DNA of 64,000 bases, taken from an uncultured Chlorobiaceae bacterium. Lineage in GTDB: Bacteria > Bacteroidota > Ignavibacteria > UBA10030 > SZUA-254. The stretch is taken from NCBI GenBank assembly GCA_964471945.1, contig CAYYIJ010000002.1:10481-74480 (forward strand). The letters are read 5' to 3'. The translations under genes were made by a program, and so were the position numbers. This document shows positions 4,447 through 14,396 of this stretch, piece by piece. Each line of letters starts with the position of its first letter. Positions within the stretch are counted from its first letter, which is position 1. The notes under the pieces were generated by a model that was not told where the DNA came from, did not search any database, and saw only the letters and a program-made list of their open reading frames with translations.

Positions 4447-5199
4447 ATGGATTTCTCAATAATAATCTTAATTTCGTTTATATTTTTTATTATCGCTTTG
4501 CTCTACTCTTCAGTGGGGCACGGCGGTGCATCTGGATATTTGGCGGTGTTATCCTTATTTACTTTTAAACCGGATGAAATGGCATCAACCGCGTTGCTCA
4601 TAAATGTAACAGTAGCCGGGATTGCGTTTTACTCTTATTATCGTTTAGGATATTTTTCTCCAAAACTTACATTACCGTTTTTGTTAACTTCAATTCCGCT
4701 CTCATTTATCGGCGGCATGCTGAATATCCCAAAATATTATTACAGTTTCTTGCTCGCCATGGCGCTTATTACCGCAGCACTTCGTTTAATGATTAAATTG
4801 GAATCTAAAACAATAGTCGAACCAACTTACAAACATACACGAATGGCAGTTGCACTACCTGTTGGTGGAGCGATTGGTTTTATCTCCGGAATTGTCGGGG
4901 TTGGTGGAGGAATATTCCTAAGTCCGATAATTCTTCTAATGAAATGGGCAAATCCAAAATTCACAGCCGCAACTTCGGCATTATTTATAGTGATGAATTC
5001 CATTTCAGGAATTGGTGGAAGGATTATAGATGACAGATTTTCAACAGGTAATTTTTTGCCTTTCATGGCTGCGGCGATAGTGGGCGGATTTGTCGGGTCG
5101 ATTTGGGGTGCGAAGAAATTTTTACATCAAACACTCAGAAGATTACTCGGAATTGTTCTATTAATTGCGGCAATAAAACTGTTGATTGCATCTCTGTAA
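4447..5199 (+). CDS. TauE/SafE family sulfite/anion exporter permease (DUF81).
   Basis: A 250-aa polytopic protein with the internally duplicated GxGGG motifs typical of TauE/SafE (GHGGASGY, GVGGGIF). Confidence 0.8.
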   Translation: MDFSIIILISFIFFIIALLYSSVGHGGASGYLAVLSLFTFKPDEMASTALLINVTVAGIAFYSYYRLGYFSPKLTLPFLLTSIPLSFIGGMLNIPKYYYSFLLAMALITAALRLMIKLESKTIVEPTYKHTRMAVALPVGGAIGFISGIVGVGGGIFLSPIILLMKWANPKFTAATSALFIVMNSISGIGGRIIDDRFSTGNFLPFMAAAIVGGFVGSIWGAKKFLHQTLRRLLGIVLLIAAIKLLIASL

Positions 5200-5410
5200 T
5201 TCAGTGCGCTTAGTGTTGACTTAATTCACAGCCGAGGCGAGGAGGAAACAAAGATAACTTCGAGAATTTTTAAATATTTTATCATGTTGCAAGTGAAGAA
5301 CATTTTTTTTACCTTTTTAAACAGAAATTTAATTAGACTTAGCACGAAACAATAAATTATTAATCAATAACGACTAATAACTCAAAACTCATAATTCATA
5401 ACTAAAATAT

Positions 5411-5775
5411 TAGCGTAGCTTCGGCTGCTGTCTTGGCTTGAAAACGTGGAAATTTTTATGCATGCAAGATGGAGCCAGCATACGCCCCGAAAGGGGCGTG
5501 GCTGGTGTATCCTTTGTGTGCGGGCATCCACGTGCCTCAAGTCAGAGGGTAATCGGTTTCACGCCCTTTGTATTTCTGTGGCACCCGTGTAGTAGACGGT
5601 CACCGACCGTCGTTCGTAGAATACCTTGTTCGCCGATCTGTTGATCGGCTACTACAGCCCGCCGCAAAGATTCAGCCAAACGTGGTAGCCGCACCCTTTA
5701 CGGGTGCGTGTCTCAGGAAACACAGAAATCCCGCTTTAAGTAGATAAACCCACGGCTCAAAAGTCTGCGGTTACT
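5411..5775. ncRNA. Candidate structured non-coding RNA; GC-rich, ORF-free element of unknown class.
   Basis: GC content is well above the flanks. Multiple perfect hairpins are visible: ACGCCCC-GAAA-GGGGCGT nested in CCAGC/GCTGG, GACGGTC/GACCGTC, GCCGATC-tgtt-GATCGGC, GCACCC-tttac-GGGTGC. A long-range pairing ATTTCTGTGGCACCCG / CGGGTGC...CACAGAAAT is also present. The only ORF here (5438..5644) has a junk-like product. Confidence 0.3.
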
Positions 5776-5793
5776 AAGAAAATTTGAAACACT

Positions 5794-5832
5794 TGATATT
5801 CTTAAAAATGTGTGGTATATTATATACCACAG
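5794..5832 (+). promoter_or_regulatory. Sigma-70-like promoter (TTGATA, 17-bp spacer, TATATT) overlapped by a perfect palindrome TGTGGTATAT|ATATACCACA; candidate operator for the downstream HTH repressor.
   Basis: Read directly from the sequence, 20-50 nt upstream of the HTH start codon. Confidence 0.4.
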
Positions 5833-5849
5833 TATAAGGAGTTACAAGT

Positions 5850-6212
5850 ATGACTTTTGGTGAATTTGTTAGAAAAAAACGTATTGAAGCCGAGCTTGGT
5901 CTTAGAGAGTTCTGTATAAAGGCAGAGGTAGACTCAAGTAACTGGAGCAAAATTGAACGTGGAATACTTCCTGCACCTTCGAACCGGGAGTTCCTTGAAT
6001 CGCTGGCTAAGTTGTTAAAATTGAAGAAAGGTGAAACAGATTGGTACATATTTTTTGATCTTGCTTCCCTTTCTCAACAAAAGATTCCGGACGATGTTTA
6101 TGAAGATAAAAATGTATTAGCCGCTCTTCCAGTATTTTTTAGAACAGTCCGGGGCGAAAAACCGACTGAAGAAGAATTAGATAATCTGATAACTCTTTTA
6201 AAGCAGAGGTAA
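5850..6212 (+). CDS. XRE-family helix-turn-helix transcriptional regulator (CapH/ImmR-like).
   Basis: N-terminal HTH_3-like segment (TFGEFVRKKRIEAELGLREFCIKAEVDSSNWSKIERG); 6 nt upstream of the peptidase gene. Confidence 0.75.
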   Translation: MTFGEFVRKKRIEAELGLREFCIKAEVDSSNWSKIERGILPAPSNREFLESLAKLLKLKKGETDWYIFFDLASLSQQKIPDDVYEDKNVLAALPVFFRTVRGEKPTEEELDNLITLLKQR

Positions 6213-6217
6213 AAAAA

Positions 6218-6829
6218 TTGGGAGCCGACATATCGGGATTACAAATACCGTTCCTTTGGGATGATGAGATACGGAAGAAGGCAGACGAATTCAGGAAAAA
6301 ATATTGGGGTGATAAAATTCCTATCGATGTTGAACTGATTGCCGAGAGAGATTTAAAAATTTTGATTATTCCGATTCCTGATCTCCGTTACAAAGCTCAT
6401 ACAGAAGCATATCTTTCAGGTGATCTAAAAGAAATTTCGTACGACCCCGCTGCTCCTGACATCAGAATTCGTTTTTCGATAGCACACGAAATCGGTCATT
6501 TCGCTCTTCATGCAAACATAATTCGACAACTCAGACCAAGTTCAATAGATGAATGGAAAGAAATTCAACGAGCTTTGCCCGATGTTTTTTGGGGACGCGC
6601 AGAATATCAGGCGCGGGAATTTGCTGGAAGACTGTTGGTTCCCCCTGAGTTGTTGATTCAGGCGTTGAGAGAATTACAACCCTTGATTGAAAAAGCAAAA
6701 GCCATTGCGCCGAATTTGGAAATACCTGTTATTAAAGAACTCGTTTCGCCGAAACTTGCAAAGAAGTTTTTCATATCAGATGAAGTAATAGTGCGACGGA
6801 TGGATGCTGAGGGAATTCAGATAAAGTGA
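6218..6829 (+). CDS. ImmA/IrrE-family zinc metallopeptidase (M78, DUF955; CapP-like).
   Basis: HExxH motif in IAHEIGHFALH plus a downstream Glu; the typical partner of an XRE HTH. Confidence 0.75.
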   Translation: MGADISGLQIPFLWDDEIRKKADEFRKKYWGDKIPIDVELIAERDLKILIIPIPDLRYKAHTEAYLSGDLKEISYDPAAPDIRIRFSIAHEIGHFALHANIIRQLRPSSIDEWKEIQRALPDVFWGRAEYQAREFAGRLLVPPELLIQALRELQPLIEKAKAIAPNLEIPVIKELVSPKLAKKFFISDEVIVRRMDAEGIQIK

Positions 6830-6838
6830 AATGACCAG

Positions 6839-8050
6839 ATGTCAGAGATGAAAGAAAGAAATATGATATTTATCAGCCACGCTTGGGAAGACTTTGAATT
6901 TACAAAGTGGCTTGCATTACAATTAGCCAAAGAAGGTTTTGGCGTTTGGTGTGATTTGACAAAATTACTTGGGGGAGAAAATTGGCCAAGAGAAATAAAT
7001 GAAGCATTGCAAAGAAGAACATGTAAATTTCTATTTGTTCTTTCGAGATCATCAAATACAAAACCCGATCCTCTTGGCGAACTTGAAACTGCAAGAAAGA
7101 TAATGAGGCGAGAAAATATCAGCAATTTCATTGTACCTCTTAAGATAGATAGTATCGTTCGGGATCAAGTTGATTATAGACTTCAAGAAATTCAAAGCCT
7201 CTCATTTGAATCCGGTTGGGCAAAAGGTCTGTCGGATTTGTTAAAGATGTTAAATGAACAAGGAATTCCCAAGAATCTTTCATTCAATCCTCAAGCTGTC
7301 AACGAATGGTGGAAAAGATACGGTACGGAGTCAAGAAAGATTCTTGAAACGCCAGAAAACCTTTCTTCAAATAGATTTTCGATACATCACTACCCTACAA
7401 CAATTTTTGCTCACTTTGTGGATGAGAAACCTCGGATAATATCTAGAATTATTGAATCAATTCCCCTTTCAACATTAGATATTATACATGGCGAAGATGA
7501 GCTTATAGAAAACTCAAAGACAGGTCTCTATTACTTAACAAGACTTTCAAATCAGACATTTGAAAAAGGGATGGTTAATAAAGGACTTCGAAGTTTCACC
7601 CTCGCAAAATCAAAAGGTTGCTGCTACTATTTCCACGAAGAATTACTTAATAATGGAAGGATAAAATACAGAAATAGTGGTGAGCTGGATCCGAGAATAA
7701 AATTGTGGGGAAAATTTGGGACTGAGAAATGGTACTGGGCTTTGCGAGTACGATTTATGATGGAGCCACAACTTCATTATTTGGTACAATCTCATGTATT
7801 GGTTCAAAATAAAAAAGGGTTCAGTCCTGCACCAAAAGGAGTTTACAAATCGTGGAGGAATGACAAATGGAGAGATAAGTTAAAGGCATCAATGGTACAC
7901 CTAGCAGAAGACAATTCAGATATAAGATTTGGACTCGGAGCAAATAATAATCTAACAATTTCAAAGGAATCCACTTTATACACCTGCCCAGTAAGTTACG
8001 AAGAACCAGCAGAACAATCGGAAATAGAGGACGCAGATACTGATGGCTGA
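6839..8050 (+). CDS. TIR-APAZ protein of a short-pAgo (SPARTA-type) system.
   Basis: N-terminal TIR-like domain (MIFISHAWEDFEF...GFGVWCD...FLFVLSRSS...GELE) followed by a roughly 260-aa APAZ-like region. An 8-nt overlap (ATGGCTGA) with the downstream Argonaute gene indicates translational coupling. Confidence 0.7.
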   Translation: MSEMKERNMIFISHAWEDFEFTKWLALQLAKEGFGVWCDLTKLLGGENWPREINEALQRRTCKFLFVLSRSSNTKPDPLGELETARKIMRRENISNFIVPLKIDSIVRDQVDYRLQEIQSLSFESGWAKGLSDLLKMLNEQGIPKNLSFNPQAVNEWWKRYGTESRKILETPENLSSNRFSIHHYPTTIFAHFVDEKPRIISRIIESIPLSTLDIIHGEDELIENSKTGLYYLTRLSNQTFEKGMVNKGLRSFTLAKSKGCCYYFHEELLNNGRIKYRNSGELDPRIKLWGKFGTEKWYWALRVRFMMEPQLHYLVQSHVLVQNKKGFSPAPKGVYKSWRNDKWRDKLKASMVHLAEDNSDIRFGLGANNNLTISKESTLYTCPVSYEEPAEQSEIEDADTDG

Positions 8051-9578
8051 GCTAATCAAACTCGAAGAACCTGAATTAATATTTGGACACAACCAGGCTT
8101 TGGAAGATCCAAGAGATGGTTTATCATTATTTGGCCCGCTTAAAGAAAATTCTCCCTTTGGAATCAATTATGGTCTAATTGGAACTGAAGCAGGTATCAA
8201 TAGATTCTACAGATGGCTAAAAACCACTAAGAGTTTGCTTGCTCATAATGAAGTTTCTAAAAGAATACTTTGGATACCATTCCCAGGTTTTGAAGAAATA
8301 TTCAGAATTCCATTTGCTGACGAAGCAATCACAACAAAAATCGTCGATGCCGAAATACTTAAACAAATATTAAAAGACGATGATGCTTTTCAAAGAGTTT
8401 ACAAAGCAGTTGACCTTTTTGAAGAACCAATTAGAGAGTTTTACAAGAGAGCTGATGAAGGAATCAACATTTGGTTTGCAATATCACCAGAATCAGTATT
8501 TAAAGAATGCAGACCTAAGTCTACTATAGATGATCCACTGAAAATAGTGAGCAGGGATGCAATAAAGAAAAGAAAGGAAATAGCGAAGCTAACAAGAGGT
8601 GGACAAGAATTTATTTTTAACGGACAAGAACAGGACTACTTCGCATATAATTTCGATAATGATTTTCGTCGCCAGCTTAAAGCTCGTTTGATTCTTAATA
8701 ATATTAAAGATCCTGTACAGATTATTAGAGAATCTACATTGACACAACAAGACTTCTTAGATAAATGGGGAAATCCTGAACGAGATCTTGAACCTGATTC
8801 TCAAGTCGCATGGAATTTGCTCTCAGCAATTTTTTACAAAGCAGGTGGAAAACCCTGGAAACTTAAGGGAATCAGAGAAGGTGTTTGTTATCTTGGTATG
8901 GTATTTAAAAAATTAGAGGGCGAAACGGATAAACGATCAGCATGTTGTGCGGCTCAAATGTTTCTCGATTCGGGAGATGGGGTGGTGTTTAAAGGAGCTG
9001 TAGGTCCCTGGAAATCACCCGAAGGCGAGGATTATCATCTTGATTACAATGCTGCAAAAGAAATAATTCATAGAGCTGTTGCTGCTTATAAAGATTTATT
9101 TGGAAACAACACTAATCCAAAAGAAATATTCCTACATGGTAGAACTTATTTGAACGAGGAAGAATGGCGAGGTTTTTCAAATATCGCACAGAGTGGAATC
9201 AAGATCGTTGGGATTAGAATCAGGCAAGGCAATTTCAAATTATTCCGTTCAGGGAGATTTCCAGTTCTGCGTGAAATGGCATTAATTGAAAATTATAAGA
9301 AAGGATATTTGTGGAGTACGGGTTTTATACCTAAACTAAAAACCTATCCTTATCAAGGTATTCCCTACCCGTTAGAGATTGATATTTGCAAGGGTGATTC
9401 TGATTTGTTAACAATAATGAAAGATATTTTGGCCCTTACTAAATTGAATTATAATAGTTGTCACTTTGCAGATGCTGTGCCAATCACCTTACAGTTTGCT
9501 CAAAAGATCGGAGATATATTAACGGCAGGTCCAATTGAAAAGGATACTGCCCCATTACCTTTCAAGTTTTATATCTAA
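8043..9578 (+). CDS. Short prokaryotic Argonaute (MID-PIWI, catalytically inactive).
   Basis: PIWI signature YKAGGKPWKL. No Asp at the RNase H catalytic positions. Length of 511 aa matches MID+PIWI-only pAgos. Confidence 0.75.
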   Translation: MAELIKLEEPELIFGHNQALEDPRDGLSLFGPLKENSPFGINYGLIGTEAGINRFYRWLKTTKSLLAHNEVSKRILWIPFPGFEEIFRIPFADEAITTKIVDAEILKQILKDDDAFQRVYKAVDLFEEPIREFYKRADEGINIWFAISPESVFKECRPKSTIDDPLKIVSRDAIKKRKEIAKLTRGGQEFIFNGQEQDYFAYNFDNDFRRQLKARLILNNIKDPVQIIRESTLTQQDFLDKWGNPERDLEPDSQVAWNLLSAIFYKAGGKPWKLKGIREGVCYLGMVFKKLEGETDKRSACCAAQMFLDSGDGVVFKGAVGPWKSPEGEDYHLDYNAAKEIIHRAVAAYKDLFGNNTNPKEIFLHGRTYLNEEEWRGFSNIAQSGIKIVGIRIRQGNFKLFRSGRFPVLREMALIENYKKGYLWSTGFIPKLKTYPYQGIPYPLEIDICKGDSDLLTIMKDILALTKLNYNSCHFADAVPITLQFAQKIGDILTAGPIEKDTAPLPFKFYI

Positions 9579-9809
9579 TCATTTAGTAAACAAAAATTGT
9601 TCTATTTATATCTTCAAAGAATATGTAAGTTTTTCCTTGAGAATTGGTATACCAAAGGATTCTAAAAACAAATCAATCTTGAAACAAGATACTATCTTCA
9701 ATTTTCATTTTTGAAAATCAACGTCTAAAATCTTTCCAGTTTTTCATCTTTTCAACCAAAATCTAACATTTATCTCTGGCATAATAATTGATATTTATAA
9801 ATACCAATT

Positions 9810-13050: not shown

Positions 13051-13119
13051 TAGGCAACAGATTTTTTTTCTGGTATATTTCTAAAAATATATTTACATTG
13101 AGCAAAGAAAATTATTCTT

Positions 13120-13290
13120 TGGTTTCGTCTCCGAGTTTCACAACCTAAGTCTTAGAGATATGGTTGTGTAACCGATGAGTCTGCGGACTCTTCCCAATAA
13201 TAAGAGATTGGGAAAACGGTGATGGCGGAAACGGCATCGCCACCCGGCTTGTCCCGAATTTGTTTTGGGACTTGGAAAGGAGAGATAAAT
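13120..13290 (+). promoter_or_regulatory. Structured 5' leader of moaA; candidate Moco (molybdenum cofactor) riboswitch.
   Basis: A GC-rich patch with four clean hairpins (CACAACC/GGTTGTG, TCCCAAT/ATTGGGA, GTCCC/GGGAC, GGTGATGGCG/GCCATCGCC-like), directly upstream of the Moco biosynthesis operon. The Moco motif itself could not be verified by eye. Confidence 0.35.
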
Positions 13291-13385
13291 AATTTTATCA
13301 TTTATTCATTCCAAGAAGAGATGGGGATTTTTATTTTAATGCAAAAGTTAAAATTAAAAATGAAAAAATATTTATTTATGAAAAA

Positions 13386-14396
13386 ATGATGCCATTAATT
13401 GATTCTTTTAGAAGAGAACATAAATATCTTCGTATATCAGTAACTGATAGGTGCAATCTTCGATGCAGCTACTGCCAGCCCGCCGATGGCGTTCTGGCGG
13501 GCATGCCCCCGCAAGGTATTAAGTTAAAAGAACGGAGCGAGATATTGAGCTTCGATGAAATTGAGCGGGCTGTCAAAATATTTTCTTCGATGGGTATAAA
13601 CAAAATCCGGATCACGGGTGGCGAGCCGTTGGTTAGAAAAGATTTACCAAGGCTTATTCAGAGATTGGCAATTATCTCCGGGATCGAAACCGTAGGTGTA
13701 ACGACAAACGGAGTTCTCTTAAAATCATTCGCTGCCCAGCTAAGGCAAGCTGGAGTTACGAACTTGAATTTCAGCTTAGATTCTTTACACCAATCGCGGT
13801 TCGAAGAAATTTCAGGTCAGAATTATTTCAACGATGTAATTAATGGAATTGAAGCCGCGCTTGTGGCGGGTTTTCAGCCGCTCAAACTGAATGTAGTAGT
13901 AATGGGCGGTATCAACGATGATGAACTTATCGACTTCATCGAATTTGTTCGCAATAAACCTATTAATGTTCGCTTTATCGAGTATATGCCTTTTAAATTT
14001 AATGGCTGGGGTAAAGCCATCTTTGTTTCTTATCAAGAGATGATAAAAAAAATCGAGCAAAGGTATAAATTAATTCCATTGCAAACAAACATTTCATCTA
14101 ACACCAAGGATTATTGGATTGATGGAGTGGTAGGAACTATAAGTTTTATAACGCCGATGTCTGACCATTTTTGCGGAACATGTAATCGTATTCGATTGAC
14201 CGCCGATGGCTTGATAAAGTCCTGCCTGTTTCACCCAGCGGAAATAAATTTACGCTCAGCTCTTCGCAACGGTGAAACCGATGATACAATCAAAGAGATG
14301 ATATATTCAGCACTTAAACAAAAACAATATACGCATCCGGTTTTGGAAGCTTTAGCGGGTATTGAAAACCAGAGTATGGCGGAAATTGGCGGCTAA
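13386..14396 (+). CDS. moaA: GTP 3',8-cyclase MoaA (radical SAM).
   Basis: CNLRCSYC radical-SAM motif plus a C-terminal Cys cluster (CGTCNRIRL). Confidence 0.9.
   Translation: MMPLIDSFRREHKYLRISVTDRCNLRCSYCQPADGVLAGMPPQGIKLKERSEILSFDEIERAVKIFSSMGINKIRITGGEPLVRKDLPRLIQRLAIISGIETVGVTTNGVLLKSFAAQLRQAGVTNLNFSLDSLHQSRFEEISGQNYFNDVINGIEAALVAGFQPLKLNVVVMGGINDDELIDFIEFVRNKPINVRFIEYMPFKFNGWGKAIFVSYQEMIKKIEQRYKLIPLQTNISSNTKDYWIDGVVGTISFITPMSDHFCGTCNRIRLTADGLIKSCLFHPAEINLRSALRNGETDDTIKEMIYSALKQKQYTHPVLEALAGIENQSMAEIGG

What the first reader, a model, noticed from the sequence alone, without database searches (positions are those of the whole stretch)
5411..5775. ORF-free, GC-rich, hairpin-dense 360-nt element immediately upstream of the defence island
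In an AT-rich genome this stretch is strikingly GC-rich and forms a series of perfect local helices. These include ACGCCCC-GAAA-GGGGCGT with a GNRA tetraloop nested in CCAGC/GCTGG, GACGGTC-acc-GACCGTC, and GCCGATC-tgtt-GATCGGC. Others are GTGTAGTAG...CTACTACAG and GCACCC-tttac-GGGTGC. A long-range closing helix, ATTTCTGTGGCACCCG with CGGGTGC...CACAGAAAT, competes with one of the local hairpins. The only ORF across it (5438..5644) has a nonsense-like product. It resembles a stable structured RNA (housekeeping sRNA, ribozyme or element-associated ncRNA) rather than protein-coding DNA. One stretch (ACAGAAATCCCGCTTTA) weakly resembles the RNase P CR-V/P4 segment, but the partner CR-I sequence is absent, so I could not assign a class. 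Its position directly at the left edge of the HTH/peptidase/SPARTA block is suggestive: ncRNA genes are common integration or anchoring points for defence islands.
Basis: seen in the sequence. Interest (0 to 1): 0.6.

Follow-up and report, generated by a model that had tools for sequence, protein, structure and literature searches.

The report
New structured RNA leading defence cassettes
The GC-rich hairpin cluster is a real, conserved, folded RNA element of a family that no RNA database lists, and in uncultured Ignavibacteria-like bacteria it always sits at the front edge of small mobile anti-phage gene cassettes, so it is a good candidate for a new regulatory or mobility-linked RNA.

Summary
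Window 5411-5777 has 53% GC against 39% for the window and 26-28% in its flanks.

It matches none of the 4227 Rfam 15 families, holds no tRNA or tmRNA, and codes for no conserved protein.

It does have relatives. I found about ten copies in metagenome contigs and Ignavibacteria MAGs, including one much more divergent subfamily. The shared core is about 211 nt (window 5411-5685).
- An invariant 23-nt 5' module carries a UUCG hairpin.
- A long irregular hairpin follows, whose stems covary (21 pairs changed on both sides, 98% of cells paired, 0 of 500 shuffles as good).
- The tip loop stays GNRA, and invariant G-U pairs mark the + strand as the folded one.
- A rival fold is also conserved.

The window copy has a 69-nt hairpin insertion and a second module (5683-5777).

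Wherever the downstream DNA is visible, the element precedes defence genes on the same strand: SPARTA here, type III and IIG restriction-modification, PDC-S02 and HicAB elsewhere. The upstream core genes differ from locus to locus.

Best reading: a new, portable 5' leader RNA of mobile defence cassettes. Its mechanism is untested.

The parts
5327..5410 (+). AT-rich upstream region with TAACT-type repeats. It is loosely conserved in front of the element in several copies and is a possible promoter region. No transcription start site was determined.
   Evidence: Alignment of the 130 nt upstream of TAGCG in 12 sites. Similar ACTCATAACT...AAAT strings occur in L024, L025, L026 and L043. GC is 0.28.
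5411..5433 (+). Module 0: the invariant 23 nt TAGCGTAGCTTCGGCTGCTGTCT. It contains hairpin P0, GUAGC-UUCG-GCUGC (5415-5419 / 5424-5428).
   Evidence: It is identical in all 12 aligned copies, including the divergent subfamily. P0 variants GCAGC..GCUGC (L026 323) and GUAGC..GCUAC (L024 1642) keep the pairing. Logan contigs of the same strain break exactly here.
5435..5543 (+). Long irregular hairpin of the core (fold I).
- P2: 5435-5441 / 5537-5543
- P3: 5444-5450 / 5527-5533
- P4: 5460-5468 / 5513-5521
- P4b: 5471-5473 / 5510-5512
- P5: 5474-5478 / 5502-5506
- Tip hairpin: 5482-5488 / 5493-5499, with a GAAA loop
   Evidence: RNAalifold and pair counts. With nine copies, 11 pairs change on both sides, 98.8% of cells pair, and 0 of 500 shuffles reach this. 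With 12 copies, 21 pairs change on both sides. The GNRA loop is kept (GAAA, and GAGA in L030).
5543..5570 (+). P8 hairpin AGAGGG-(loop)-CCCUUU. Its 14-nt loop, UUAUCGGUUUCACG in the consensus, varies at only a few single positions within the main subfamily. The window has UAAUCGG.
   Evidence: Alignments. The divergent subfamily keeps a hairpin here, AGAGGGUG..CACCCUUU, with a different loop.
5576..5587 (+). 3' strand of the alternative helix P7, CUGUGGCAC, which pairs with 5532-5540. The consensus is CUGAGGCAC, so the window copy has two mismatches.
   Evidence: 93.9% of cells pair, with only wobble-compatible changes. P7 competes with P2 and P3. Single-sequence MFE folds use it.
5588..5656 (+). 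Window-specific 69-nt insertion. It is a Y-shaped domain closed by GUGUAGUAG / CUACUACAG, and it holds the perfect hairpins GACGGUC-acc-GACCGUC and GCCGAUC-uguu-GAUCGGC. It replaces a U-rich linker.
   Evidence: The covariance-model alignment places a 70-nt insert in the linker. All other copies lack it.
5657..5685 (+). 3' tail of the core: GCCCGC (5657-5662, the 3' strand of P6, pairing with 5520-5525) followed by ...CAGCCAAACGUG.
   Evidence: P6 pairs 114-119 / 191-196 are kept, with a compensatory A-U in L031 and U-A in L026 and L031. The covariance-model match ends at 5684.
5683..5777 (+). Module B, an accessory structured module. A 9-10 bp helix, GUAGCCGCA / UGCGGUUAC, closes it and encloses GCACCC-uuuac-GGGUGC, the 'RNase P-like' ACAGAAAUCCCGCUUUA, and GGCUCAAAAGUCUG.
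   Evidence: It is homologous to L024 213-307 (blastn E 8e-6; nhmmer E 1.6e-5). The closing helix is kept through five one-sided wobble changes. Only two copies are known.
5793..5831 (+). Promoter-like site (TTGATA-17-TATATT) and palindromic operator (TGTGGTATATAATATACCACA, 5811-5831) of the HTH gene. This belongs to the cargo, not to the element.
   Evidence: Promoter scan. The same operator and promoter sit upstream of HTH-M78 relatives that lack the element.
5850..9578 (+). Cargo:
- HTH regulator (5850-6212)
- CapP-like M78 peptidase (6218-6829)
- TIR-APAZ (6839-8050)
- short pAgo (8043-9578)

Together this is SPARTA with a CapH/CapP-type regulator pair.
   Evidence: Pfam. PADLOC: capP 6e-15, Aga_TIR-PNTD1-PNTD2 3.5e-80, pAgo_I 4.7e-179.

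Best explanation
Window 5411-5777 is one copy of a previously uncatalogued family of structured RNA elements, found so far in Ignavibacteria-type (FCB group) genomes and metagenomes.

**Anatomy (shown).** An invariant 5' module with a UUCG-capped hairpin is followed by a core of about 190 nt. The core folds into a long irregular hairpin (P2-P5, GNRA tip) and a second hairpin (P8). A 3' tail can instead invade the hairpin (P6+P7), giving two mutually exclusive folds. The window copy adds a 69-nt inserted hairpin domain and an accessory module B.

**Where it sits (shown).** It lies at the 5' edge of small, recombinase-less accessory or defence cassettes, on the same strand as the cargo. The flanking core genes differ from locus to locus, and a locus can hold more than one copy.

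**How it most likely works (inferred).** It is transcribed as the 5' leader of the cassette.
- The terminal hairpin would stabilise the transcript.
- The bistable core would act as a switch, by binding a protein or a ligand or by its folding kinetics.
- In the complete form of the family, this switch would decide whether the invariant 5' segment AGCUUCGG pairs with its exact complement CCGAAGCU. That complement sits in a hairpin that otherwise occludes the start-codon region (GGAGCUUAUG) of the first gene.

**The window copy.** That start-proximal hairpin and the family's usual first gene (a conserved protein of about 123 aa) are missing. In their place is a SPARTA operon with its own CapH/CapP-type promoter and operator. 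So this copy is either an upstream read-through leader, a separate small RNA, or a leader left behind after cargo exchange.

**Confidence.** That this is a conserved structured element of a new family is about 0.9 likely. The figure of 0.5 given for this explanation applies to the leader/switch mechanism.
For: **Not a known RNA.** No Rfam family matches, even at E<=10. No tRNA or tmRNA is present.

**Homologues.**
- A scan of metagenome contigs returned eight loci whose first ~190 nt match at E 1e-25 to 1e-41.
- Covariance model R1 scores 192-251 bits on them and 214 bits on the window.
- It then found copies upstream of a conserved small protein in Ignavibacteria-type contigs, at 230 bits and, for a divergent subfamily, 76-77 bits.

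**Structure.**
- With nine copies, 98.8% of cells pair and 11 pairs change on both sides. None of 500 shuffles reaches this, and slid controls give 32-44% paired with 0-3 such pairs.
- With 12 copies, 21 pairs change on both sides and the covariation score is 0.369 against 0.126 for shuffles.
- Unpaired junction bases are invariant while the stems vary.

**RNA, and the + strand.**
- Invariant G-U pairs sit at columns 58-106 and 65-99, and mostly at 74-91.
- The tip loop stays GNRA (GAAA or GAGA), and P0 has a UUCG loop.

**Two folds.** P6 and P7 are 94% paired with compatible changes. Single-sequence MFE folds choose them, although they exclude the covarying P2 and P3.

**Leader position.**
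- In L030 and L027 only hairpins lie between the element and the start codon, and the upstream gene is divergent.
- The H2 module ACACCGAAGCUCC...GGAGCUUAUG is conserved in L027, L040 and L043, with a variant (ACUCCCGAAGCUCC) in L030. It contains the exact complement of module 0's AGCUUCGG.

**Cargo.** SPARTA; type III Mod/Res twice; type IIG Eco57I-like; PDC-S02; HicAB; PIN/protease.

**Dispersal.**
- Upstream genes are TauE, LpxC/FabZ, PurM, FtsX, FBPase and asparaginase.
- L027 holds two copies.
- Five of the eight metagenome contigs end inside the element or within ~75 nt after it.
- Logan contigs of the window's own strain break at 5404-5433.
Against: - No transcript data exist. Neither the transcription start site nor the 3' end is known, and no convincing conserved promoter was found upstream.
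- There is no terminator-type expression platform. The proposed long-range pairing of module 0 with H2 involves invariant bases, so covariation cannot test it.
- In the window the cargo has its own promoter and operator, and HTH-M78 relatives work without the element. The window copy may therefore be functionally uncoupled or decaying. It deviates at two otherwise invariant positions and weakens P7.
- Module 0 also occurs alone, and as degenerate tandem fragments (L030 5733 and 5823; L031 1771; L026 323 and 761; L024 1642). Modules are shuffled and interrupted by small palindromes. This fits a recombining or selfish repeat as well as it fits a leader.
- The divergent subfamily was aligned by the model itself, which biases pair counts towards the structure.
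Confidence: 0.5

Rival explanations
1. Selfish, modular intergenic repeat (ERIC-, BOX- or Correia-like). The element would be a dispersed, transcribed, imperfect-palindrome repeat that spreads or recombines on its own. It would accumulate in variable regions, and its RNA fold would be kept only because it must be tolerated within transcripts. It would have no dedicated role in defence.
For: - It is multi-copy and dispersed, and assemblies break at it.
- It has a mosaic of separable modules: module 0 alone, the core, module B, H2, and hairpin insertions.
- Truncated copies exist (L025, L024 1642).
- A site-specific 69-nt insertion is present, as seen in ERIC variants (the ERIC comparison rests on general knowledge).
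- The same lineages carry small GC-rich palindromes that insert even in frame into a protein.
Against: - Junction and loop bases are invariant while stems covary. That is the signature of a functional fold, not of a decaying repeat.
- Its orientation matches the downstream gene in every visible case, and the downstream genes are always accessory or defence genes.
- No terminal inverted repeats or target-site duplications were found.
- Only one copy occurs in 64 kb of this genome.
Confidence: 0.2
2. DNA-level recombination or capture site. The invariant 5' segment (core CTTCGGCTGCTG), perhaps presented on folded single-stranded DNA as at an integron attC site, would be the crossover site. A recombinase encoded elsewhere would insert and exchange defence cassettes there.
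For: - Cassette-array-like layouts exist, such as L026 (module 0, hicBA, core, module 0 plus element) and L024 (PDC-S02, module 0, hicBA, element).
- Tandem degenerate 5' fragments lie upstream of intact copies, like integration scars.
- Sequences diverge right after GCTGCTG(T).
- The cassettes lack their own recombinase.
- Complete integrons are known in Ignavibacteriae (PMC9024848).
Against: - No integrase or transposase lies within the held flanks of the window, L027, L030 or L043.
- A crude scan found no R''/R' (RYYYAAC / GTTRRRY) pair with a stable stem.
- At 211 nt the element is larger than attC sites (57-141 nt).
- GNRA and UUCG tetraloops and many G-U pairs point to RNA.
- The right-hand island borders carry no matching site or direct repeat.
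Confidence: 0.15
3. Stand-alone trans-acting or catalytic RNA, that is, a small RNA or self-cleaving ribozyme carried by the cassettes. The invariant single-stranded loops would bind a protein or another RNA, or the RNA would process the transcript.
For: - It has long invariant unpaired stretches, such as the P8 loop UUAUCGGUUUCACG and GAUGGAG.
- In the window and in L024 the cargo appears to have separate promoters.
- Stable hairpins close the element at its 3' side.
Against: - No terminator follows the element.
- In the restriction-modification loci it is contiguous with the coding region.
- It resembles no known ribozyme class in Rfam.
Confidence: 0.1

Closest known systems
Orphan riboswitch-like or cis-regulatory 5' leader RNAs found by comparative genomics (Weinberg/Breaker-type motifs)
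   Same: - Junction bases are conserved and stems covary.
- It sits on the same strand directly upstream of coding regions.
- It has alternative pairings, and the start-codon region lies in a hairpin.
   Different: - It matches no Rfam family.
- The downstream genes share no metabolic theme but are diverse defence systems.
- It is multi-copy and mobile.
- No ligand or classical expression platform has been identified.
ERIC / BOX / Correia-type structured intergenic repeats
   Same: - It is a dispersed repeat with a long imperfect palindrome, and it is probably transcribed.
- It has a modular build, variants with inserted segments, and truncated copies.
   Different: - It shows strong compensatory covariation with invariant loops.
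- It has a strict orientation and is exclusively associated with defence cargo.
- No terminal inverted repeats or target duplications were seen, and its copy number appears low.
Integron attC sites and cassette arrays
   Same: - It is a folded, repeated element separating promoter-poor accessory cassettes (toxin-antitoxin, restriction-modification).
- Sequence is conserved within a lineage, and no recombinase lies inside the cassettes.
   Different: - It is 211 nt and branched or bistable, rather than a single 57-141 nt hairpin.
- It has no RYYYAAC / GTTRRRY cores.
- It lies at the 5' side of its cargo.
- It carries RNA-type tetraloops.
- No IntI was seen.
RNase P RNA
   Same: One 15-nt stretch, ACAGAAAUCCCGCUU, resembles the CR-V / P4 3' strand (from general knowledge of RNase P).
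   Different: - No Rfam RNase P model scores, and no CR-I partner is present.
- The stretch lies in accessory module B, which most family members lack.
Large mobile-element-associated ncRNAs (HEARO/omega RNA, ROOL, GOLLD, IS110 bridge RNA)
   Same: It is a large structured RNA encoded on mobile DNA, with a conserved scaffold next to variable sequence.
   Different: - No IscB, TnpB or IS110 gene is adjacent.
- The variable positions pair with each other, so they are not guide segments.
- It scores against no Rfam model.

Membership tests
Any Rfam 15 family (including RNase P, tmRNA, T-box, 6S, EAR, HEARO, ROOL, GOLLD, group I/II introns and known ribozymes) | Covariance-model score at or above the family's gathering threshold | tested here: not met
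   The window produced no hit in this region at gathering thresholds. At E<=10 only noise appeared, at 11-17 bits. The same held for homologous copies L030 and L043.
RNase P RNA | Paired CR-I / CR-V strands forming P4 | tested here: not met
   A CR-V-like string lies at 5722-5738, but no complementary GAGGAAAG-type partner exists in 5411-5777. No model hit was found.
tRNA / tmRNA integration target | A tRNA or tmRNA gene, or a fragment of one, at the island border | tested here: not met
   ARAGORN finds none in the window. Only one related island, L043, abuts a tRNA, and it does so on its far side.
Structured functional RNA (generic) | Helices maintained by compensatory substitutions in independent homologues | tested here: met
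   With nine copies, 11 pairs change on both sides. With 12 copies, 21 do. 98-99% of cells pair, 0 of 500 shuffles reach this, and slid controls give 32-44% paired.
Structured functional RNA (generic) | A transcript of defined ends | not testable with these tools
   No expression data were available. The promoter scan was inconclusive.
Cis-regulatory 5' leader / riboswitch | Location in the 5' UTR, on the same strand as the regulated gene | tested here: met
   It is co-oriented with the next gene in the window, L024, L027 (both copies), L030, L040 and L043. In L027, L030, L040 and L043 only hairpins separate it from the start codon.
Cis-regulatory 5' leader / riboswitch | An expression platform coupled to the sensing fold | tested here: inconclusive
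   Competing folds are seen (P2/P3 against P6/P7). A start-codon hairpin has a 5' strand complementary to module 0. The bases involved are invariant, so covariation cannot test the pairing. The window copy lacks this hairpin.
Cis-regulatory 5' leader / riboswitch | A specific ligand or binding partner | not testable with these tools
   This needs in-line probing or binding assays.
Integron attC site | R''(RYYYAAC)...R'(GTTRRRY) cores closing a single imperfect hairpin of 57-141 nt | tested here: not met
   A pattern-plus-fold scan of the window (4-11 kb) and of seven loci found none. The core is 211 nt.
Integron attC site | An integron integrase in the array or genome | tested here: inconclusive
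   None lies within the held flanks. Whole genomes were not available.
MITE / ERIC / BOX-type repeat | Many dispersed copies per genome | tested here: inconclusive
   Two copies lie 3.1 kb apart in L027, and contigs break at the element. But only one copy occurs in this 64-kb window. No complete genome was available.
MITE / ERIC / BOX-type repeat | Terminal inverted repeats and target-site duplications | tested here: not met
   No flanking direct repeats were found at the island or element borders. This was a limited test.
SPARTA (neighbouring cargo, for context) | TIR-APAZ protein plus short pAgo | tested here: met
   PADLOC scores Aga_TIR-PNTD1-PNTD2 at 3.5e-80 and pAgo_I at 4.7e-179. Pfam finds TIR_2.

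The most novel reading that the evidence does not exclude
A new class of bistable leader RNA acts as the common front end of mobile anti-phage cassettes in Ignavibacteriota. It would be a sensor or switch, binding a protein or a small molecule, that sets when horizontally acquired defence operons are expressed. These operons include restriction-modification systems, SPARTA and toxin-antitoxin pairs. Its invariant 5' segment might double as the site where cassettes are exchanged.
Probability: 0.3. Interest if true: 0.85.

Novelty: new variant of a known kind. Interest (0 to 1): 0.66.

Why it matters
Defence islands are usually described by their proteins alone. Here a conserved, covarying RNA of about 210 nt matches no catalogued family and recurs in front of unrelated defence systems. 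It is often followed by an equally conserved small protein of unknown fold.

If it controls expression, it would be a shared RNA-level regulator of immune genes, a largely open topic outside CRISPR and retrons. If instead it marks where cassettes are exchanged, it would point to a capture mechanism that is not an integron.

Either way, it gives a searchable marker (model R1) for finding new defence cargo in a poorly studied phylum.

Tried and rejected
**Known families.**
- Rfam at gathering thresholds and at E<=10, on the window and on homologues, gave nothing.
- ARAGORN gave nothing.

**Searches for relatives that found none.**
- blastn of the element against the phage and plasmid collections found no match.
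- Two DNA-pattern scans of viral contigs gave only two chance hits to an unrelated terminator hairpin. A pseudo-protein scan of viral contigs found nothing.
- TauE-anchored loci in 185,579 species genomes gave 11 loci, none with the element and none syntenic. No 'empty site' could therefore be reconstructed.
- Contexts of seven M78-peptidase relatives lacked the element. It is not part of the HTH-M78 module.
- Searching the spurious ORF as a protein gave no hits.
- MerR and TauE look-ups for island-free strain variants found none.

**Structural ideas I dropped.**
- The attC-type core-site scan was negative.
- The search for flanking direct repeats or target duplications, including the tRNA 3' end in L043, was negative.
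- The 12-nt repeat AATTGTTCTATT at 5151 and 9595 is judged chance, since about 120 such pairs are expected in 64 kb.
- The outer helices of the RNAalifold model (columns 3-23 with 138-158) are probably wrong. The local hairpins P0 and P8 have better support from variants.
- My first column assignment for a 'P1' helix was wrong and is discarded.
- The 9-nt complementarity of module 0 to the 16S 530 loop is judged chance.

**Other.**
- The structure of the co-occurring small protein (pLDDT 87) has no significant PDB match.
- Literature searches found no description of the element. One possibly relevant 2026 preprint could not be opened.
Full report
**1. The observation**

The stretch is as described. 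Window 5411-5777 has 52.6% GC, against 38.8% for the window and 26-28% in the flanks on either side.

As RNA, 5401-5790 folds to -151.3 kcal/mol on the + strand. Shuffles average -116.6, giving z -5.65. The - strand gives -137.2 and z -5.05.

The only ORF (5438-5644) has no relative among 5.8 billion proteins.

**2. What it is not**

- No Rfam 15 family matches. The gathering-threshold scan of the whole window found only a Moco riboswitch at 13117-13298. A permissive scan of 5200-6000 gave noise at 11-17 bits.
- ARAGORN finds no tRNA or tmRNA.
- The phage and plasmid collections hold nothing similar.
- The RNase P lead therefore fails.

**3. Surroundings**

Upstream lies a TauE exporter gene (4447-5199). 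Downstream lie an HTH regulator, a CapP-like M78 peptidase, TIR-APAZ and a short pAgo. That is SPARTA behind a CapH/CapP-type pair, and MerR follows.

The HTH gene has its own promoter and a palindromic operator at 5793-5831. The same operator and promoter sit in front of HTH-M78 relatives that lack the GC-rich element. So the element is not part of that regulatory module.

TauE relatives in Bacteroidota and Ignavibacteriales MAGs (69-72% identity) also lack it. So it is not a fixture of the TauE locus either.

Short-read assemblies of the same strain break exactly at 5404-5433. That was the first hint of a repeated sequence.

**4. Finding relatives**

DNA patterns gave nothing in viral contigs. 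I then fed the spurious ORF to the degenerate-pattern locus finder, so that six wobble-tolerant anchors were scanned at once.

- This returned eight metagenome loci.
- nhmmer shows that the first ~190 nt of the element are conserved in all of them (E 1e-25 to 1e-41).
- One locus, L027, holds two copies. A separate match to the 3' part (5684-5786) occurs in L024.
- Five of the eight contigs end inside the element or within ~75 nt after it.

**5. Anatomy**

Aligning nine copies shows a core of about 211 nt (window 5411-5685). The window copy has an extra 69 nt (5588-5656) in place of a U-rich linker, and the covariance-model alignment confirms this.

The parts of the core are:
- An invariant 23-nt 5' module, TAGCGTAGCTTCGGCTGCTGTCT. 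It holds the hairpin GUAGC-UUCG-GCUGC. Variants GCAGC..GCUGC and GUAGC..GCUAC keep the pairing.
- A long irregular hairpin, P2-P5, tipped by CGCCCC-GNRA-GGGGCG.
- A second hairpin, P8.
- A 3' tail.

Pair counts:

| Alignment | Cells paired | Pairs changed on both sides | Shuffles as good | Slid controls |
|---|---|---|---|---|
| 9 copies | 98.8% | 11 | 0 of 500 | 32-44% paired, 0-3 pairs |
| 12 copies (model-fitted) | 98.0% | 21 | 0 of 500 | 33-42% paired, 2-7 pairs |

Junction and loop bases are invariant, while variation sits in the stems. Invariant G-U pairs and the RNA-type tetraloops mark the + strand and favour RNA over a DNA structure.

The 3' tail carries GCCCGCC and CUGAGGCAC. These are complementary to GGYGGGC and GUGCCUCAG inside the hairpin (P6 and P7). 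They are 94% paired, with wobble-compatible and two compensatory changes. P7 excludes P2 and P3, yet single-sequence MFE folds choose P6-P7-P8. The element therefore looks bistable.

Module B (5683-5777) has one homologue, L024 213-307. The closing helix is preserved there.

**6. A wider family and its usual partner**

Covariance model R1 finds a single copy in the window (214 bits) and none in 19 control loci.

In L027 the element is followed by a small ORF. Searching that protein gave 54 relatives at 71-91% identity, one of them from an Ignavibacteria MAG. Both clusters whose contexts I could fetch carry the element upstream:
- One scores 230 bits.
- The other is a much more divergent subfamily at 76-77 bits. 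It keeps the 23-nt 5' module unchanged and rebuilds P2-P5 with different sequences.

Including it raises the count to the 21 double-sided pairs shown in the table. This alignment was fitted by the model, which biases pair counts towards the structure.

In these complete versions the leader continues through variable hairpins to a conserved module, ACACCGAAGCUCC...GGAGCUUAUG, that encloses the start-codon region. L030 carries a slightly different version, ACUCCCGAAGCUCC. Its CCGAAGCU is the exact complement of AGCUUCGG in the 5' module. The window copy lacks this module and the small protein.

**7. Context**

| Side | Genes |
|---|---|
| Downstream, same strand | SPARTA with CapH/CapP (window); type III Mod-Res (L030; L027 after the small protein); type IIG Eco57I-like (L043); RadC-like (L040); PDC-S02 nuclease and HicAB (L024, L026) |
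| Between the two L027 copies | An inverted PIN/DUF4325/protease set |
| Upstream | Unrelated core genes: TauE, LpxC-FabZ, PurM, FtsX, FBPase, asparaginase |

- In L030 the element plus the restriction-modification system sits inside the lpxD | lpxC-fabZ-lpxA cluster.
- No recombinase lies in any held flank.
- The 5' module also occurs alone in front of hicB. It also occurs as degenerate tandem fragments upstream of intact copies.
- Small GC-rich palindromes are inserted in leader loops, and even in frame in the small protein.

**8. Interpretation**

*Shown:* this is a conserved, covarying, + strand structured element of a new family. It is modular and repeated, and it sits at the 5' edge of mobile defence cassettes.

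*Inferred:* it is transcribed as a leader, and its bistable core governs the fate of the downstream message. In the complete form this would work by freeing or occluding the start region through the complementarity between module 0 and H2. The window copy is then a leader whose original cargo end has been replaced by a self-regulated SPARTA operon.

*Rivals:*
- an ERIC/BOX-like selfish repeat;
- a recombination site at CTTCGGCTGCTG;
- a stand-alone small RNA or ribozyme.

None is excluded. A crude attC test and a search for flanking repeats were both negative.

**9. Novelty**

The element has no Rfam match. I found no description of it in the papers I could search. Complete integrons are known in Ignavibacteriae, but the defining attC features are not met here.

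I rate it a new variant of a known kind: an orphan structured RNA motif associated with mobile DNA. Interest is moderately high.

Noticed in passing
window 13117-13298 (+): A Moco (molybdenum cofactor) riboswitch at 61 bits, E 3e-12. It sits upstream of a radical-SAM MoaA-like gene (13386-14396).
   Followed up: no
window 5793-5847: SPARTA here sits behind a CapH/CapP-type HTH + M78 peptidase pair. A palindromic operator, TGTGGTATATAATATACCACA, overlaps face-to-face promoter-like sites. The same operator occurs in relatives that carry other effectors (an 816-aa protein, a NACHT protein).
   Followed up: partly
L027 6208-6606; L040 7001-7363; L043 7001-7372 (proteins P0121-P0174): A highly conserved protein of 120-134 aa, with the invariant pattern HYECGF..K..K.GVTPEGC.V...KT.FETPIP. 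It always lies between the RNA leader and restriction-modification-type genes. It matches no Pfam, NCBIfam or PADLOC family. The AlphaFold model is confident (pLDDT 87) but has no significant PDB fold match.
   Followed up: partly
L027 6220-6260 and proteins P0134, P0145, P0157, P0170: Small GC-rich palindromes (CCCGCC...GGCGGG) are inserted in frame at three different sites of that small protein, giving 'RRSPKDGGG', 'PARRSLKDEGG' and 'LPDRRLLGG'. They also insert into loops of the leader. This recalls Rickettsia palindromic elements.
   Followed up: no
L027 6177-6210; L030 6195-6232; L040 6944-7003; L043 6942-7003: A conserved start-proximal module, ACACCGAAGCUCC-(variable hairpin)-GGAGCUUAUG. 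Its CCGAAGCU is the exact complement of AGCUUCGG in the invariant 5' module, several hundred nucleotides upstream.
   Followed up: partly
L030 4196-10750: The element plus a type III Mod-Res pair (about 4 kb, opposite strand) interrupts the lpxD | lpxC-fabZ-lpxA gene cluster.
   Followed up: partly
L043 10703-10777 (-): A tRNA gene lies at the far (right) border of the island formed by the element, the small protein and a type IIG enzyme. No matching direct repeat was found at the left border.
   Followed up: partly
L024 137-165 and L018 5545-5570: A tandem 11-nt repeat, TGTTAAGAAATTGTTAAGAAAT, preceded by GTTACT. It occurs in two otherwise unrelated cassette junctions. The window has a GGTTACTAAGAAAATTTG variant at 5769-5786.
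   Followed up: no
window 5151-5162 and 9595-9606: A 12-nt direct repeat, AATTGTTCTATT, at the end of TauE and just after the pAgo stop codon. It brackets the island but is most likely chance.
   Followed up: partly
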